From: Candidatus Eiseniibacteriota bacterium
GTDB lineage: Bacteria > Joyebacterota > Joyebacteria > Joyebacterales > Joyebacteraceae
Assembly: GCA_030622115.1 (NCBI GenBank)
Contig: JAUXGN010000008.1
Location: forward strand, 8,185 to 72,184
Direction: 5' to 3'
DNA: 64,000 nt
Of the stretch, positions 11,522-14,551 are shown piece after piece. A program made the translations under genes and the position numbers. The notes beneath the pieces are model-generated. The model worked only from the letters and a program-made list of their open reading frames with translations. It was not told where the DNA came from and did not search any database. Position 1 is the first letter of the stretch. Each line of letters opens with the position of its first letter.

Positions 11522-14209
11522 GTGCGCGGCGTGGCCATGAGGCCACGCCGTTCTTTCTATTTGTGCTCGTCTGCGCTGCCTGCAGTGGTATCGGTCATGC
11601 TTGGTTTCACCGTGCCCGGGCTGGTCAGTAACTTGCTTCCGCAGTACTCAAACCCCGAATCCACAGGTACTCCCCGATGGGTCATTCCTACAGTGGCACC
11701 AGCCAACAGGCAAAGTCGATTCGACATGCAGGAGGAACTGCGTCTCGTCGCGTCCGGATTCGAGTCGTCCGTCAGTCGTCTCCGTTCGGAGAGCGCGATG
11801 TCGGACAGGGGCATCAGACCGACCAACATCGCCGTAGCACTACCGTTTCTTCTGATCGAAGGCATACGGTTTGAGGGTGACCGCGATGCCGCGAGAGCGA
11901 TGTCCTTGGGGAACGCATTCGCCACGGCGCATTTCCTTTCCCAAGATGGGCTCCTGGACGGTACAACGAGCGCCAGACCGAGAGCGCTGGGTTTCTGCGA
12001 CAGATGTCTTGCCGAATTCGTTCGCCTCTACGGTGAGCTCCTGCCGCGGGAGAGCGATTTCTGGCAGCACTATGACCGGTTCATGGACGAGTATTTCTCA
12101 AGTCTTGAATGGGAGCTGTCGATCCACCACGGAGACGGAGGCGTCAAGGCCGTCGGAGACGATGAGCTCGATAGAACGCTTCTTCTTCTGGGCAGGAAGA
12201 TGTCGCCGCTCAAGGTCACGGCGGCTGCCGTGGCCACTCTTGGCGGGCGTCCGGATCTCCTTCCGGGCATGGAGCGGTTGATAGAGGAGTACCACGCCGG
12301 CTACCAGCTGGCCGATGATCTGGTCGATCTTCGTGAGGATCTGGAAGCGCATCGGCCGTCAGCGACAGCGTGGATGCTTCTTCGATGGAGCGGCCGCACG
12401 GAGCTCCCGGAGGAACTGTCAGCAAGAGGTCTCATGAGGATGGCGGTGGAGTCGGGCGCACTGAAGAGAGTCACAGGGACGATGGAGTCGTGCTACGCGC
12501 GCGCACTCAGCACGGCAGAGGAACTCCCGTGTCCGGAGCTTGCGGAGTTTTTGGGAACAGTGCTTCACGATACCGCTTTCGGCAATGCCCGAATGACTCG
12601 CCGCCTCTCACTGGAGGCGCGAGCTGCTCGAACTGATCAGAGGAGTTGCTCGGATCCGAATGCGCCCGAACCACATGGCTCCGTCGCGCGCGCCATTGTG
12701 GCGGCGCGCGAGCTCCACACGTTCGATGTTGCAGAAAAAGAGTTCGCGTTCGATCCCGCGTCAGGATTCTTCTTCGAAGCAGATGCCGTTGCTCGGGACA
12801 CCATCAGGTGGCTCAGGAGAAGAGCGCCTGAAGCTGAGCGGGCCGTACTCGAACTCAACCACGGCGCGGCTTCCATCCGAACCGGCATATCCGAGGTGGC
12901 GGGGTTGGCGCCGGATGCGAAGCCCCGCGGAGATGGAGGGCAGGCCGGACCGATCGAGATCTCCATCAAGTCGCTGGCGCTCAATGTGAGCAATGCCTGC
13001 AACCTCTCGTGCACCTACTGCTATCTCGGAGCGGCGACGGCTTCTCGGAGGGGCAACAGAAACTCTGAGGAGAGGCTTGCGGGTGATACCATGTCCGAGG
13101 ACGTCGCCTTCAGGGCGGTCGACGTCCTGATGCGCGAGTCGTTCGGAGAGCCGGAAGTGTCGATAGTGTTCTTTGGCGGGGAGCCACTTCTCGCGACTGA
13201 GATGCTCCGACCGGTCGTCCGATATGCGAGGGAGCGGGCGGCCGAAGTGGGTAGGCAGATCCACTTCCACATGACAACGAACGGAACACTGCTCAGATCC
13301 AGCACCGCGAAACTCCTTGCCGAACTCGGGATCGATTGTCTAGTCAGTATGGACGGCTGCGAGAAGGATCACGACGCGAACCGGTGCTTTCCGAACGGGG
13401 AGGGATCCTACGCGCATATCGCCCGCAATCTGGCGGAGTTGCCTCCCGACTTCGATGTCGGTGTCAGGGCGACCATTACCGAATCGTCCGGAGCGCTGAC
13501 CGCTCTTGTGGAGCATCTCACGGGGCTGGGCTTCTCGATGGTACACCTGGCTCCAGTCAGTGGCACGAGCATGGGAAAGGAGTTCGCTCTCAGGCTCTGC
13601 TCTGAGTTCGAAGCACTCGCCGAATCGGAACGCGACGCGCTGCTGAACGGTTCGCGTCCGTCGGTGAGCAGTTTCACCGAGCCGATGGCGCTCCTGGCCG
13701 GCGGATTTCGCCGGAGTTCTCCGTGTGGCGCCGGTGCACGCTACCTCTCCGTTGCGACCGACGGGACGCTCTATCTCTGCCACAGATTCGCAGGCGACAG
13801 TCGCTTCGCCGTCGGACACGTGGCGGGCGGCATCGACCGCGGGGCGATCACGTCACTGCTCAGGAGATTGCGAGCGGCGTCGTCTGCCTGCCGGGACTGT
13901 TGGGCCCGTGATCTGTGCGGCGGTCCCTGCTATCACGACCTGGAAACGATGCCTGAGGAATCCGTGGGGCACGATGCGGTGCGATGCTCCGTACGGAAGA
14001 GGATCATCGAACTCTCGATGTGGTTGTACGCGGAGCTGCCTGAAGAGCAGCGGAAGCGCCTGCGTGGACGGGCGCGGCGTGAATCCCGCCGGGAGGGGAA
14101 GGTGGGGGATCGTCCGCGAGTGGAAACGAGTGGCAAAACAACGGTGCGGGAGGGGGGTGATGGGGTTGAAGCACATGAAGCTGGCGAACGGCATCAGGGG
14201 GGCGGCTGA
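11522..14209 (+). CDS. radical SAM/SPASM-domain peptide-modifying enzyme with ~480-aa N-terminal domain of unknown function
   Basis: Central CNLSCTYC (Cx3Cx2C) radical SAM motif, FFGGEPLL, HMTTNGTLL, SMDG; C-terminal SPASM Cys clusters SPCGAGARYLSVATDGTLYLCHRF and CRDCWARDLCGGPCYHD; N-terminal half has Asp-rich motifs (GDDELD, LADDLVDLRED) but no assignable family; start codon uncertain (GTG 11522 / ATG 11537 / later Mets). Confidence 0.85.
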   Translation: MRGVAMRPRRSFYLCSSALPAVVSVMLGFTVPGLVSNLLPQYSNPESTGTPRWVIPTVAPANRQSRFDMQEELRLVASGFESSVSRLRSESAMSDRGIRPTNIAVALPFLLIEGIRFEGDRDAARAMSLGNAFATAHFLSQDGLLDGTTSARPRALGFCDRCLAEFVRLYGELLPRESDFWQHYDRFMDEYFSSLEWELSIHHGDGGVKAVGDDELDRTLLLLGRKMSPLKVTAAAVATLGGRPDLLPGMERLIEEYHAGYQLADDLVDLREDLEAHRPSATAWMLLRWSGRTELPEELSARGLMRMAVESGALKRVTGTMESCYARALSTAEELPCPELAEFLGTVLHDTAFGNARMTRRLSLEARAARTDQRSCSDPNAPEPHGSVARAIVAARELHTFDVAEKEFAFDPASGFFFEADAVARDTIRWLRRRAPEAERAVLELNHGAASIRTGISEVAGLAPDAKPRGDGGQAGPIEISIKSLALNVSNACNLSCTYCYLGAATASRRGNRNSEERLAGDTMSEDVAFRAVDVLMRESFGEPEVSIVFFGGEPLLATEMLRPVVRYARERAAEVGRQIHFHMTTNGTLLRSSTAKLLAELGIDCLVSMDGCEKDHDANRCFPNGEGSYAHIARNLAELPPDFDVGVRATITESSGALTALVEHLTGLGFSMVHLAPVSGTSMGKEFALRLCSEFEALAESERDALLNGSRPSVSSFTEPMALLAGGFRRSSPCGAGARYLSVATDGTLYLCHRFAGDSRFAVGHVAGGIDRGAITSLLRRLRAASSACRDCWARDLCGGPCYHDLETMPEESVGHDAVRCSVRKRIIELSMWLYAELPEEQRKRLRGRARRESRREGKVGDRPRVETSGKTTVREGGDGVEAHEAGERHQGGG

Positions 14210-14345
14210 GGTCGCGGCGCAATCGGAGACGAGTGAGATATGTTTCGTCGATTACTCGCAGTGTCCTTCGTCGGATCTCTGCTGGATTCTGGATGTCGGG
14301 TGCGGATGCGAGCAGCATGACAACTGCTTTGTTGATACGGGGTAG
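14175..14345 (+). CDS. RiPP precursor peptide candidate A (56 aa): MKLANGIRGAAEVAAQSETSEICFVDYSQCPSSDLCWILDVGCGCEQHDNCFVDTG
   Basis: Small ORF overlapping the 3' end of the rSAM/SPASM gene (alternative start 14160 right after GGGAGGGGGG); six Cys, each followed by Asp at i+3..i+6; shares LANG N-terminal motif and C[F/L]VD[Y/T] motifs with peptide B. Confidence 0.6.
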   Translation: MKLANGIRGAAEVAAQSETSEICFVDYSQCPSSDLCWILDVGCGCEQHDNCFVDTG

Positions 14346-14383
14346 GCGTGGTGGATGGGCGTATGCGGGAAGGGGATCAAACG

Positions 14384-14551
14384 ATGAATCACCTCAGGTT
14401 GGCGAACGGCGGTCCGGATCCGTCAGGCGCAACGCCGGATTCGCTCCTGTGCTACATCTTCGTTGATTGGGGAGACTGCGGTTCGGTCGATCAGTGTGGG
14501 TTCGACTTCGGCAGTTGTGGCAACAGAGACGTCTGTCTCGTCGATTACTAG
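14384..14551 (+). CDS. RiPP precursor peptide candidate B (55 aa): MNHLRLANGGPDPSGATPDSLLCYIFVDWGDCGSVDQCGFDFGSCGNRDVCLVDY
   Basis: GAAGGGGA RBS 7 nt upstream of ATG; five Cys each with Asp at i+3..i+5; LANG leader-like motif; immediately followed (9 nt) by strong RBS of next gene. Confidence 0.6.
   Translation: MNHLRLANGGPDPSGATPDSLLCYIFVDWGDCGSVDQCGFDFGSCGNRDVCLVDY

What the first reader, a model, noticed from the sequence alone, without database searches (positions are those of the whole stretch)
14175..14551. Every Cys in both candidate precursors has an Asp 3-5 residues downstream - ranthipeptide-like Cys-Asp thioether template?
Seen in sequence. In peptide A: C-FV-D, C-PSS-D, C-WIL-D, C-GCEQH-D, C-EQH-D, C-FV-D. 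In peptide B: C-YIFV-D, C-GSV-D, C-GF-D, C-GNR-D, C-LV-D. Established knowledge: freyrasin-type ranthipeptides are crosslinked by a rSAM/SPASM enzyme (PapB) at Cys-X3-Asp motifs, S to C-beta of Asp. Inference: this regularity suggests multiple non-alpha Cys-Asp thioether rings, but with variable spacing and a C-terminal CxVD(Y/T/G) end motif not described for known families.
Basis: partly seen in the sequence, partly recalled or inferred. Interest (0 to 1): 0.75.

Follow-up and report, generated by a model that had tools for sequence, protein, structure and literature searches.

The report
Cys–Asp thioether peptide pair, unusual maturase
Two small neighbouring genes encode peptides whose only universally conserved residues are five cysteines, each followed by an aspartate, next to a radical-SAM enzyme of the kind that welds Cys to Asp, so this is very probably a new family of multiply bridged modified peptides, made by an enzyme unusually fused to a terpene-type domain.

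Summary
Both ORFs are coding, and every Cys has an Asp 3-6 positions downstream. This beats chance: composition-preserving shuffles give a joint P of about 1.5e-4.

In 22 related Candidatus Eisenbacteria genome loci and 107 metagenomic peptide clusters, the only invariant columns of the whole peptide family are five Cys and five Asp. They strictly alternate.

- Template A is Cx2D..Cx3D.Cx3D....Cx3D.Cx2D.
- Template B is Cx4D...Cx3D.Cx2D...Cx3D.Cx2D.
- The sixth Cys of peptide A (in CGC) is not conserved. The template therefore has five rings, not six.
- Peptide A probably starts at 14160, not 14175.

The adjacent enzyme has a radical-SAM Cx3Cx2C motif, a seven-Cys SPASM domain and a predicted leader-binding RRE. 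Its best family matches, tied, are PapB and QhpD, the two enzymes known to make Cys-Asp/Glu side-chain thioethers. It falls below both curated cut-offs, and the peptides match no curated precursor family.

Verdict: a ranthipeptide-like system and a new variant of a known kind. The chemistry is inferred, not shown.

The parts
7481..10579 (+). TPR + sigma-54 enhancer-binding protein (AAA+ activator, Fis-type HTH); candidate activator of the operon
   Evidence: Pfam Sigma54_activat 1e-61, TPR_12, HTH_8. Same gene upstream of the maturase in L001, L004, L005. The functional link is inferred only: all close homologues belong to one lineage with general synteny.
10988..11003 (+). sigma-54-type promoter element TGGCACgatgtCTGCC (-24 GG / -12 GC)
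   Evidence: Two mismatches to the consensus, and matches at this stringency are not enriched in the window. However, a TGGCAC-N5-xTGC element sits at the equivalent place upstream of the maturase in 19 of the 20 loci tested. The one without it, L006, has only about 500 nt of upstream sequence.
11167..11241 (+). conserved 24-aa hydrophobic ORF MPSAARVKIIIVILLIGIASPFLG, first gene after the promoter
   Evidence: Present in 20 of the loci scanned. Variable columns by codon position are 3/1/10 of 18 each, so it is under protein-level selection. No NCBIfam hit. Function unknown.
11729..14209 (+). fusion maturase (826 aa from ATG 11729; the mechanical ORF starts at GTG 11522)
   Evidence: The start is supported by the alignment of 10 homologues. 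The whole protein has only 10 relatives in the 5.8-billion-protein database and 22 genome loci, the named ones all Candidatus Eisenbacteria.
11825..12634 (+). N-terminal trans-isoprenyl-diphosphate-synthase-like domain
12680..12901 (+). predicted RiPP recognition element (three strands plus three helices)
   Evidence: Secondary structure of the full-length model. The phmmer match to CteB (5wgg) runs from chain residue 9, so it includes CteB's N-terminal domain. The QhpD model matches from profile position 2.
12965..13990 (+). radical-SAM core (CNLSCTYC) plus seven-Cys SPASM domain
   Evidence: Pfam Radical_SAM 1e-12. NCBIfam PapB 1.4e-73 and QhpD 1.5e-73, both 248 bits and both below cut-off. 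Invariant Cys at 493/497/500 and at 735, 753, 790, 793, 799, 803, 822 in 895-aa numbering.
14160..14345 (+). precursor peptide A (61 aa; leader MGLKHMKLANG...; core 14241-14342, CFVDYSQCPSSDLCWILDVGCGCEQHDNCFVDTG)
   Evidence: Overlaps the maturase stop by 50 nt. GGAGG lies 6 nt before ATG 14160.
14384..14551 (+). precursor peptide B (55 aa; leader MNHLRLANG...; core 14450-14548, CYIFVDWGDCGSVDQCGFDFGSCGNRDVCLVDY)
   Evidence: B accompanies A in every locus whose sequence extends far enough.
14561..15997 (+). secreted FG-GAP / PQQ-like beta-propeller
   Evidence: Pfam FG-GAP_3, FG-GAP, PQQ_2. A hydrophobic N-terminal signal-like segment is visible in the translation. The gene follows the peptides in L001, L004, L005, L006 and also in the distant relatives L033 and L034. 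No homology to QhpB.
15994..17543 (+). ABC-2 type transporter: ATPase 15994-16731, permease 16728-17543
   Evidence: Pfam ABC_tran 1e-23 and ABC2_membrane 1e-8. Conserved position in L001, L004, L006. An export or immunity role is inferred.
17597..20982 (+). PAS histidine kinase (17597-19570) and sigma-54 response regulator (19642-20982)
   Evidence: Pfam and NCBIfam. Present after the transporter in L001, L004 and L006. A link to the peptides is not shown, because synteny is lineage-wide.

Best explanation
This is a sigma-54-driven RiPP operon of Candidatus Eisenbacteria. It encodes two paralogous precursors (A and B; some genomes have a third) and one maturase.

Proposed steps:
1. The short leader (x-K-H-L-R/K-h-A-N-G...) is bound by the maturase's RRE.
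2. The PapB/QhpD-like radical-SAM/SPASM domain abstracts an H atom from the side-chain carbon next to the carboxylate of each invariant Asp.
3. That carbon is joined to the sulfur of the preceding invariant Cys.
4. Repeated five times, this gives five small, probably in-line, thioether rings of 2-4 intervening residues in each core (-2 Da each, -10 Da per peptide).
5. The products are probably exported by the ABC-2 transporter.

What is shown: the genes are real, the Cys/Asp template is the conserved feature, and the enzyme belongs to the thioether-forming ranthisynthase clade.

What is inferred: the bond type, the C-beta regiochemistry, the connectivity and export.

What is unresolved: the maturase's N-terminal isoprenyl-diphosphate-synthase-like domain and the co-conserved secreted FG-GAP propeller belong to the system, but their roles are unknown.
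For: - Enzyme class: Cx3Cx2C plus a seven-Cys SPASM domain, all invariant. The best NCBIfam matches are PapB and QhpD, tied at 248 bits, followed by Nif11 and SCIFF maturases. The best solved relative is the thioether synthase CteB, E = 4e-42, including its N-terminal domain.
- Substrate: in the joint alignment of A, B and third-type peptides, the only invariant columns are 5 Cys and 5 Asp. 104 of 107 metagenomic relatives fit the exact templates. The ten positions strictly alternate C-D-C-D..., starting with Cys and ending with Asp. By direct count that is 1 of 252 orderings.
- Length differences between the paralogues fall inside rings and linkers, never removing a Cys or Asp.
- PapB links Cys to C-beta of an Asp lying C-terminal to it, and accepts n = 0-6 spacings (PMC9413430, PMC10739248, PMC12373016). 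QhpD makes three Cys-Asp/Glu thioethers in QhpC (PMC7876137).
- Distant relatives of the fusion enzyme (L033, L034; GC 54-57%) again sit next to a K-H-I/V-R-L-x-N-leader peptide with Cx2-3D repeats and an FG-GAP propeller.
- Shuffle test and window-wide uniqueness of the pattern.
- A sigma-54 promoter element is conserved across loci.
Against: - There is no chemical evidence of any kind.
- The enzyme is below the curated cut-offs of both PapB (248 vs 340) and QhpD (248 vs 453).
- The peptides do not match the freyrasin-like model: best E = 0.52 for one homologue and nothing for the window's own peptides.
- Invariant Asp could be a recognition or metal-binding feature rather than the acceptor.
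- The D-x-C spacing is as regular as the C-xn-D spacing. Other connectivities are therefore possible, such as Cys to a later Asp, or nested rings.
- No leader peptidase is encoded in the operon.
- All close homologues come from one lineage. Conservation of the flanking regulators and the transporter there is not independent evidence of a functional link.
Confidence: 0.6

Rival explanations
1. The cross-linked peptides are not free natural products. They are small structural or cofactor-bearing subunits that dock onto the secreted beta-propeller in the periplasm, as the thioether-knotted QhpC gamma subunit does in quinohemoprotein amine dehydrogenase. Cys-Asp thioethers would still form, but the end product would be a protein complex.
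For: - The gene order is rSAM, then small peptide(s), then a signal-peptide beta-propeller, with an ABC transporter nearby. This mirrors qhpD-qhpC-qhpB in the genuine qhp operon found in L031 and the qhp system described in PMC7876137.
- QhpD ties with PapB as the best family match, and its profile match includes the N-terminal leader-binding region.
- The propeller stays next to the peptide and the fusion enzyme even in the distant loci L033 and L034.
- One Trp is invariant in each Eisenbacteria core.
Against: - The propeller has no detectable homology to QhpB and is of the FG-GAP type.
- The operon has no QhpA cytochrome, QhpE protease or QhpG monooxygenase.
- The cores are 33-34 residues with tight 2-4 residue rings. 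QhpC is about 80 residues with 5-8 residue spans.
- Peptide B has no spare Cys for a Cys-Trp quinone.
- The L033 core has no Trp.
Confidence: 0.15
2. The radical-SAM enzyme makes a different cross-link. It could be sactionine (S to C-alpha), or a link to a residue other than Asp. The Asp residues would then be conserved for substrate recognition, charge or calcium binding.
For: - Sequence alone cannot fix regiochemistry.
- The solved relative CteB links Cys to Thr rather than to Asp (the acceptor residue is from my own knowledge).
- Sactisynthase models also give weak matches (RumMC 104 bits).
- The enzyme is below every curated cut-off.
Against: - The two best-scoring families both use Asp/Glu side chains as acceptor.
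- Apart from Cys, Asp is the only residue invariant in all paralogue types, and it is never replaced even by Glu in the locus-derived peptides.
- Donors and candidate acceptors alternate. In known sactipeptides, donors cluster N-terminally and acceptors C-terminally in a hairpin (my own knowledge).
- Sactisynthase scores are far lower than ranthisynthase scores.
Confidence: 0.12
3. The peptides are not thioether-bridged at all. They would be disulfide-rich or metal-binding (Cys/Asp ligand) secreted peptides that merely sit beside a radical-SAM gene with another substrate.
For: Cys- and Asp-rich small peptides can bind metals. Each core has five Cys, so one thiol would remain free after two disulfides form.
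Against: - The peptides have no signal peptide. Instead they carry a conserved RiPP-type leader.
- Peptide A is translationally coupled to the maturase.
- The enzyme has an RRE.
- The pairing of this peptide type with this enzyme type recurs in distant loci.
- No other candidate substrate is present in the operon.
Confidence: 0.05

Closest known systems
PapB / PapA (freyrasin), Paenibacillus polymyxa ranthipeptide
   Same: - A radical-SAM/SPASM maturase with an RRE, and the top NCBIfam match.
- The core is built of repeated Cys-Xn-Asp units with Asp C-terminal to Cys, in line.
- The precursor is short, with an N-terminal K-x-hydrophobic leader. The PapA leader used in vitro is LKQINVIAG... (PMC10739248); here it is MKHLRLANG.
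   Different: - The score is below the PapB equivalog cut-off (248 vs 340).
- The peptides do not match the freyrasin-like model.
- There are five rings of mixed size (n = 2, 3, 4) in a fixed order, instead of six CX3D.
- Two obligatorily paired paralogous precursors are present.
- The maturase carries an extra ~300-residue isoprenyl-diphosphate-synthase-like domain.
- A secreted FG-GAP propeller is co-conserved.
- The producer is a Gram-negative-type uncultured phylum.
QhpD / QhpC of quinohemoprotein amine dehydrogenase
   Same: - The NCBIfam score is equal to PapB's, and the match covers the leader-binding N-terminal region.
- It shares the LCHRFAGD and CGGPCxxD motifs and 32-33% identity with real QhpD.
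- It makes several Cys-Asp/Glu thioethers in one small polypeptide that has a cleavable leader (PMC7876137).
- The gene order is the same: rSAM, peptide, secreted propeller.
   Different: - It is below the QhpD cut-off (248 vs 453).
- QhpA, QhpE and QhpG are absent, and the propeller is not homologous to QhpB.
- Ring spans are much shorter.
- There is no Cys/Trp pair reserved for a quinone cofactor in peptide B.
SCIFF / thermocellin (CteB-CteA) and Nif11-type ranthipeptide maturases
   Same: - They belong to the same enzyme clade. CteB is the closest solved structure (E = 4e-42).
- The SCIFF and Nif11 maturase models score 180-200 bits.
- The leader begins M-K-H-I/L-K/R-x-h-N, which from my own memory resembles SCIFF leaders. 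I did not test this.
   Different: - Scores are far below the cut-offs.
- No SCIFF or Nif11 precursor model matches the peptides, even at E = 10.
- The acceptor in thermocellin is Thr C-gamma (my own knowledge), whereas here Asp is the invariant partner.
ComQ / StheQ / PalQ / Ord1: isoprenyl-diphosphate-synthase-fold prenyltransferases acting on peptides or indoles
   Same: - It keeps the first and last Asp of the first Asp-rich motif, the Lys of the KT motif and the Gln one turn before the second motif. StheQ uses these residues to bind farnesyl diphosphate and Mg (bioRxiv 10.64898/2026.08.29.745113).
- ComQ-type enzymes modify a ribosomal signalling peptide encoded next to a histidine kinase and response regulator (PMC4008528).
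   Different: - Here the domain is fused to a radical-SAM maturase, which I found in no paper.
- The second Asp-rich motif is canonical DDxxD rather than a pseudo-motif.
- There is no sequence-level match to Pfam polyprenyl_synt.
- Prenyl transfer to these peptides is pure conjecture.

Membership tests
Ranthipeptide system of the PapB/freyrasin type | Radical-SAM Cx3Cx2C motif plus a SPASM domain with seven auxiliary-cluster Cys | tested here: met
   CNLSCTYC and seven further Cys are invariant in 10 homologues. Pfam Radical_SAM.
Ranthipeptide system of the PapB/freyrasin type | Maturase scores above the curated NCBIfam PapB equivalog cut-off (NF047865, 340 bits) | tested here: not met
   248.1 bits, E = 1.4e-73, covering profile positions 2-319 of 330.
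Ranthipeptide system of the PapB/freyrasin type | Leader-binding RRE N-terminal to the radical-SAM core | tested here: met
   The predicted model shows three strands plus three helices at residues 318-391. The sequence match to CteB starts at chain residue 9. This is a prediction, not a binding assay.
Ranthipeptide system of the PapB/freyrasin type | Core made of repeated Cys-Xn-Asp/Glu units, acceptor C-terminal to Cys | tested here: met
   Five invariant Cys-Asp pairs per core with n = 2-4. Spacing is mixed rather than the uniform CX3D of PapA.
Ranthipeptide system of the PapB/freyrasin type | Precursor matches the freyrasin-like family model NF037957 (cut-off 30 bits) | tested here: not met
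   No hit for the window's peptides at E up to 10. One homologue (L006 A) scores 10.3 bits, E = 0.52.
Ranthipeptide system of the PapB/freyrasin type | Thioether from Cys sulfur to a non-alpha carbon (C-beta of Asp) | not testable with these tools
   Needs mass spectrometry and NMR of the modified peptide.
QhpD/QhpC (quinohemoprotein amine dehydrogenase maturation) | Maturase above the TIGR03906 cut-off (453 bits) | tested here: not met
   248.1 bits. A real QhpD fragment from L031 scores 317 bits on 420 of its residues.
QhpD/QhpC (quinohemoprotein amine dehydrogenase maturation) | Operon partners QhpA (dihaem cytochrome), QhpB propeller, QhpE protease and QhpG monooxygenase | tested here: not met
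   None is found among the operon genes or the flanking genes scanned. The propeller is not homologous to QhpB of L031.
SCIFF (six Cys in forty-five) ranthipeptides | Maturase above the TIGR03974 cut-off (425 bits), and a precursor matching the SCIFF model | tested here: not met
   180.5 bits. No precursor model hit at E up to 10.
Sactipeptides | Sactisynthase-type enzyme and a hairpin layout, with donor Cys clustered N-terminally and acceptors C-terminally | tested here: not met
   RumMC model scores 103.6 bits against a cut-off of 720. Cys and the conserved partner residue alternate along the core. C-alpha versus C-beta itself is not testable here.
trans-Isoprenyl diphosphate synthase superfamily (including ComQ-type peptide prenyltransferases) | All-alpha IPPS fold | tested here: met
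   [not shown]
trans-Isoprenyl diphosphate synthase superfamily (including ComQ-type peptide prenyltransferases) | Asp-rich motifs and the Lys/Gln that bind the prenyl diphosphate and Mg | tested here: met
   D..D at the first motif (DDxxD in some homologues), the KT Lys and YQLADDLxD are invariant in close relatives. The key Asp and Gln are also invariant, and the Lys nearly so, in distant relatives.
trans-Isoprenyl diphosphate synthase superfamily (including ComQ-type peptide prenyltransferases) | Sequence membership in Pfam PF00348 polyprenyl_synt | tested here: not met
   No Pfam hit at E up to 10. There are only weak profile matches to PDB IPPS sequences (E = 1e-3). Standalone relatives P0148 and P0155 give sub-threshold PF00348 hits.
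trans-Isoprenyl diphosphate synthase superfamily (including ComQ-type peptide prenyltransferases) | Prenyl transfer to a peptide residue | not testable with these tools
   Would need an in vitro assay or mass spectrometry of the product (mass shift of +136, +204 or +272 Da).

The most novel reading that the evidence does not exclude
The maturase is bifunctional. Its radical-SAM half ties each precursor into five Cys-Asp thioether rings. Its isoprenyl-diphosphate-synthase-like half adds an isoprenoid group to the same peptide, for example on the invariant Trp or Tyr as ComQ does on ComX. The result would be a lipidated, multiply bridged two-peptide signal or effector that works together with the secreted FG-GAP propeller. 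That would be a RiPP class joining terpenoid and radical-SAM chemistry in one polypeptide. It may extend well beyond Eisenbacteria, because homologous domains occur with squalene-hopene-cyclase-like partners, further radical-SAM enzymes and Cys/Asp-rich peptides.
Probability: 0.2. Interest if true: 0.85.

Novelty: new variant of a known kind. Interest (0 to 1): 0.62.

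Why it matters
Only a few ranthipeptide families have been characterised. Cys-to-Asp side-chain thioethers are known from essentially two systems, freyrasin and the amine dehydrogenase gamma subunit.

This system would add a third, with several distinctive features:
- It is conserved across an uncultured phylum.
- It has a fixed five-ring template of mixed ring sizes.
- Its precursors are obligatorily paired.
- Its maturase architecture, an isoprenyl-diphosphate-synthase fold fused to an RRE and a radical-SAM/SPASM domain, appears in no curated model and in no paper I could search.

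It gives a compact, directly testable case: two 55-61-residue peptides and one enzyme. That case could show how ring size and order are programmed in ranthipeptides, and whether terpenoid-type domains take part in RiPP maturation. PapB-type enzymes are also being developed as tools for making stable cyclic peptides.

Tried and rejected
- **Chance or non-coding ORFs:** rejected by the shuffle test, the third-codon-position variation and the conservation.
- **Known precursor family:** Pfam and NCBIfam scans of six peptides at E up to 10 gave only one insignificant freyrasin-like hit.
- **Six Cys-acid pairs in peptide A, with Cys43 paired to Glu46:** rejected. Cys43 is present in only 12 of 25 sequences and Glu46 is not conserved.
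- **The propeller as a QhpB homologue:** rejected by BLASTP. PDB sequence search gave nothing useful.
- **An RNA element in the long 5' region or around the peptides:** an Rfam E-value search of 10400-14700 gave only a spurious microRNA match.
- **Exact look-up of the window's peptide B and of P0001 in the contig index:** nothing on record.
- **AFDB fold search:** library unavailable.
- **Supplementary peptide tables of the RODEO compendium:** not held.
- **Literature searches** for the fusion architecture, for Eisenbacteria RiPPs and for the peptide motifs found nothing specific.
- **Trp as a universal prenyl acceptor:** weakened, because the distant L033 core has no Trp.
- **Using conserved synteny as evidence that the regulators belong to the system:** rejected, because housekeeping neighbours (RlmN, ArsR-type HTH) are conserved in the same way.

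Full report
**1. What is at the coordinates**

The region 14160-14551 holds two small ORFs on the + strand, immediately after a long ORF and before a 478-aa ORF.
- Peptide B runs 14384-14551.
- Peptide A more likely starts at ATG 14160 (MGLKHMKLANG...). That start has a GGAGG box 6 nt upstream. It restores the leader motif shared by all homologues. It is also how the gene is called in a homologous contig.

**2. Is it more than chance?**

- Composition-preserving shuffles of each core give P = 0.005 (A) and 0.03 (B) that all Cys have an Asp at +3..+6. The joint P is about 1.5e-4.
- This test is post hoc, and the two peptides are paralogues. I therefore give it little weight on its own.
- No other ORF in any of the six frames of the 64-kb window has four or more C-x2-4-D motifs within 40 residues.

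**3. Related sequences**

*The enzyme's relatives.*
- The long upstream ORF has only ten full-length relatives among 5.8 billion proteins.
- A scan of one genome per species found 22 loci with a full-length relative. All are metagenome-assembled genomes, and every one that carries a name is Candidatus Eisenbacteria.
- Wherever the contig is long enough, the gene order is the same: TPR/sigma-54 activator, long ORF, two small ORFs, propeller, ABC ATPase, ABC-2 permease, PAS kinase, sigma-54 response regulator.

*The peptides.*
- Extraction gave 25 distinct A-type, 23 distinct B-type and two third-type sequences. The third type is an extra copy in L017 and L027.
- Within each type the cores align without gaps, at 34 and 33 residues.
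- In the joint alignment of all types, the only invariant columns are C23, D28, C32, D36, C38, D41, C45, D49, C51 and D54. That is five Cys and the five Asp that follow them.

*Templates.*
- A is C-x2-D-x3-C-x3-D-x-C-x3-D-x4-C-x3-D-x-C-x2-D-x2.
- B is C-x4-D-x3-C-x3-D-x-C-x2-D-x3-C-x3-D-x-C-x2-D-Y.

*Wider search.*
- A profile search of the large protein database found 107 clusters. All are unnamed or 'hypothetical', and the only taxon named is Eisenbacteria.
- 69 clusters fit template A exactly and 35 fit template B.
- The three exceptions are one CX4D in ring 4, one Cys-to-Phe change and one fragment.
- Asp is never replaced by Glu in the locus-derived peptides.
- DNA variation in the cores is concentrated at third codon positions: 22/16/34 of 35 columns for A and 16/12/29 of 34 for B. 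These are protein-coding genes under purifying selection.

- The first Cys of CGC in the window's peptide A is present in only 12 of 25 A-type sequences, and the Glu after it is not conserved.
- The conserved template therefore has five pairs in A as in B.
- The ten conserved positions strictly alternate, beginning with Cys and ending with Asp. By direct count this is one of 252 possible orders. Each Cys thus has its own Asp on its C-terminal side.

**4. The enzyme**

*Radical-SAM half.*
- The C-terminal ~430 residues contain CNLSCTYC and seven further invariant Cys in SPASM spacing. Pfam finds Radical_SAM.
- Against NCBIfam the two best matches are tied: PapB family ranthipeptide maturase (248.1 bits, E = 1.4e-73, profile 2-319 of 330) and QhpD (248.1 bits, E = 1.5e-73, profile 2-417 of 467).
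- Next come the Nif11-type (200 bits) and SCIFF (180 bits) maturases. Sactisynthase and cyclophane-synthase models score far lower.
- All scores are below the curated cut-offs. The enzyme belongs to the clade but not to any modelled family.
- The closest solved structure by sequence is the thioether synthase CteB (E = 4e-42). The match includes CteB's N-terminal domain.
- The full-length model shows three strands and three helices there, the usual RRE shape.
- Real QhpD genes (L030-L032) share 32-33% identity and the motifs LCHRFAGD and CGGPCxxD.

*What the two best-matching enzymes do.*
- PapB abstracts H from C-beta of Asp and joins it to a Cys bound to an auxiliary cluster (PMC10739248).
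- PapB accepts Glu, and it accepts Cys-Xn-Asp with n = 0-6, both in-line and nested (PMC9413430).
- QhpD makes three Cys-Asp/Glu thioethers in QhpC, guided by a 28-residue leader (PMC7876137).
- Ranthisynthases are reported to be highly similar to each other, unlike sactisynthases (PMC10288494).
- The enzyme family and the conserved feature of the substrate therefore point to the same chemistry.

**5. The unexpected N-terminal domain**

*Fold.*
- The first ~300 residues have no Pfam hit, even at E = 10.
- A profile of ten homologues against PDB sequences hit almost only farnesyl/geranylgeranyl diphosphate synthases, at E = 1e-3 to 0.1.
- A separate AlphaFold model of the domain is confident (pLDDT 87, pTM 0.87).

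*Conserved residues.*
- H-F-L-x-x-D-x-x-x-D at the first Asp-rich position, which is DDxxD in a few homologues.
- The Lys of a P-L-K-V/T-T-A-A motif.
- Y-Q-L-A-D-D-L-x-D-L-x-x-D at the second Asp-rich position.
- These are the residues that bind the prenyl diphosphate and Mg in isoprenyl diphosphate synthases and in the ComQ-family peptide prenyltransferase StheQ (bioRxiv 10.64898/2026.08.29.745113).

*Wider family.*
- An exhaustive profile search of 1.84 billion representatives found 1,239 relatives at E up to 1e-3, and 32 at E up to 1e-30.
- They fall into three groups:
  - further fusions to radical-SAM/SPASM domains, about 690-860 aa;
  - many stand-alone proteins of about 315 aa;
  - fusions to squalene-hopene-cyclase-like domains.
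- Three distant fusion enzymes were looked at in context.
  - L033 and L034 (GC 54-57%) carry, directly downstream, peptides with a K-H-I/V-R-L-x-N leader and the cores CNCETSDTCSIVDFGSGCGEIDSCGVDYT and CDCEESDKCWLDFASGCGGTDSCTVDYT. An FG-GAP-type propeller follows.
  - L036 has a more complex cluster: a cyclase-like protein, a second PapB/SCIFF/QhpD-like radical-SAM enzyme and a 13-Cys, Asp-rich peptide.
- The association of this fused enzyme, a Cys/Asp peptide and a propeller is therefore not just lineage synteny.
- I found no description of such a fusion in the searchable literature.

**6. Regulation and other operon parts**

- A sigma-54-type element, TGGCAC-N5-CTGCC, lies at 10988-11003. 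In the window alone it is not significant, because matches at two mismatches are as frequent as in shuffles.
- However, an equivalent TGGCAC-N5-xTGC lies at the same relative place in 19 of the 20 loci tested. The exception, L006, has only about 500 nt of upstream sequence.
- About 180 nt downstream is a 24-aa hydrophobic ORF (11167-11241). It is conserved in 20 loci with third-position variation. It has no family hit.
- The propeller (14561-15997) matches FG-GAP and PQQ-like repeats and begins with a hydrophobic signal-like segment.
- The transporter is of the ABC-2 type.
- No protease is encoded in the operon.
- The sigma-54 activator, kinase and response regulator flank the operon in all close relatives. 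So do unrelated housekeeping genes such as RlmN and an ArsR-type regulator. I therefore do not count their presence as evidence of function.

**7. Most likely mechanism**

- Shown:
  - the genes are real;
  - the Cys/Asp template is the conserved feature;
  - the enzyme is in the thioether-forming ranthisynthase clade and has an RRE-like domain;
  - peptide and enzyme co-occur even in distant relatives.
- Inferred:
  - the leader binds the RRE;
  - the radical-SAM domain forms five S-C-beta(Asp) thioethers per core, most simply in line, with Cys(i) joined to the next Asp;
  - the ABC-2 transporter exports the products or protects the producer.
- Connectivity is not settled. The D-x-C spacing between rings 2/3 and 4/5 is as fixed as the ring sizes, so other pairings cannot be excluded.
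- I put 0.6 on this explanation.

**8. Rivals**

- **QhpC-like subunit (0.15).** The cross-linked peptides could be small subunits of a periplasmic complex with the propeller.
  - For: the gene order rSAM-peptide-propeller matches qhpD-qhpC-qhpB, and the propeller is co-conserved in distant loci.
  - Against: there is no homology to QhpB, no QhpA, QhpE or QhpG, and the rings are much tighter.
  - This rival keeps the Cys-Asp chemistry.
- **A different cross-link (0.12).** The link could go to C-alpha or to another residue. This cannot be excluded by sequence, but it fits poorly with the family scores and with Asp being the only other invariant residue.
- **Unmodified metal-binding or disulfide peptides (0.05).** This fits poorly with the leader, the translational coupling and the RRE.

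**9. Comparison with known systems and novelty**

- The system works like freyrasin (PapB/PapA) and shares enzyme ancestry with QhpD.
- It fails the curated membership tests of both, and of SCIFF.
- It differs in ring pattern, in having paired precursors, in the fused terpenoid-type domain, in the propeller and in its phylum.
- I file it as a new variant of a known kind.
- The most novel reading that remains open is that the fused domain prenylates the peptide, as ComQ does with ComX (PMC5331326, PMC4008528). I give that 0.2.
  - For: the catalytic motifs are invariant, and the wider family has terpenoid-type partners.
  - Against: no acceptor residue is conserved across the distant relatives. 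Trp is invariant in the Eisenbacteria cores but absent from the L033 core.

**10. Limits**

- There is no chemical evidence.
- The AFDB fold library was unavailable.
- The PapA sequence itself was not available for direct alignment. Comparison with freyrasin therefore rests on the NCBIfam models and on published descriptions.

Noticed in passing
window 11167-11241 (+): A 24-aa hydrophobic ORF, MPSAARVKIIIVILLIGIASPFLG, is conserved in 20 related loci. It is more conserved than the maturase, and its variation falls mainly at third codon positions. It is the first gene after the conserved sigma-54-type promoter. It has no family match and its function is unknown.
   Followed up: partly
window 21161-21176 (+): TGGCACCTCGGTTGCT is a perfect match to the sigma-54 promoter consensus. 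It lies between the response-regulator gene and a xanthine/uracil-permease-family gene (22066-23475).
   Followed up: no
window 24724-26094 (+): A PmbA/TldD-family metallopeptidase gene lies about 9 kb downstream. Proteases of this family trim the leader of microcin B17 (my own knowledge). The operon itself encodes no leader peptidase.
   Followed up: no
window ~10640-10752 (+): After the sigma-54 activator gene there is a terminator-like hairpin (gggccgaagtcggccc + T-run). It is followed by two tandem copies of a ~45-nt unit (cccgtttttcgttgtccctcctcggcg.ccgtgggcttccg). This was read by eye only.
   Followed up: no
L017 7879-8136 and L027 7856-8089: Two genomes carry a third paralogous precursor, for example CRIFIDWGGCSAVDYCGSDVAGCAAADFCHLDY. 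It has the same five Cys and five Asp but otherwise divergent residues.
   Followed up: partly
L036 146-7065 (metagenome contig, GC 46%): This is a distant relative of the fusion enzyme in a richer cluster. The cluster has a squalene-cyclase-like protein, the IPPS-like domain fused to a degenerate radical-SAM/SPASM domain, and a SPASM protein with a signal-peptidase domain. It also has a separate PapB/SCIFF/QhpD-like radical-SAM enzyme and a 68-aa peptide with 13 Cys and many Asp (MKHIELLNE...CCNTCDYDCTSDCGCDTYVCGADICGCDTYTCGCNVACDDTCLLVNY).
   Followed up: partly
proteins P0134, P0142, P0144: Relatives of the maturase's N-terminal domain (E = 1e-38 to 1e-32) are fused to squalene-hopene-cyclase-like domains. 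This ties the otherwise unannotated domain family to terpenoid-type enzymes.
   Followed up: partly
window 14160-14209: The maturase ORF overlaps the start of peptide A by 50 nt. It also has a longer, low-complexity C-terminal tail than its homologues. In L001 the two genes overlap by a single base (ATGA).
   Followed up: no
L031 3349-7683: The scan for relatives also returned complete quinohemoprotein amine dehydrogenase operons (QhpA-QhpD-QhpC-QhpB) from Betaproteobacteria. These were useful as an outgroup. Their QhpD shares the LCHRFAGD motif with the Eisenbacteria enzyme.
   Followed up: yes
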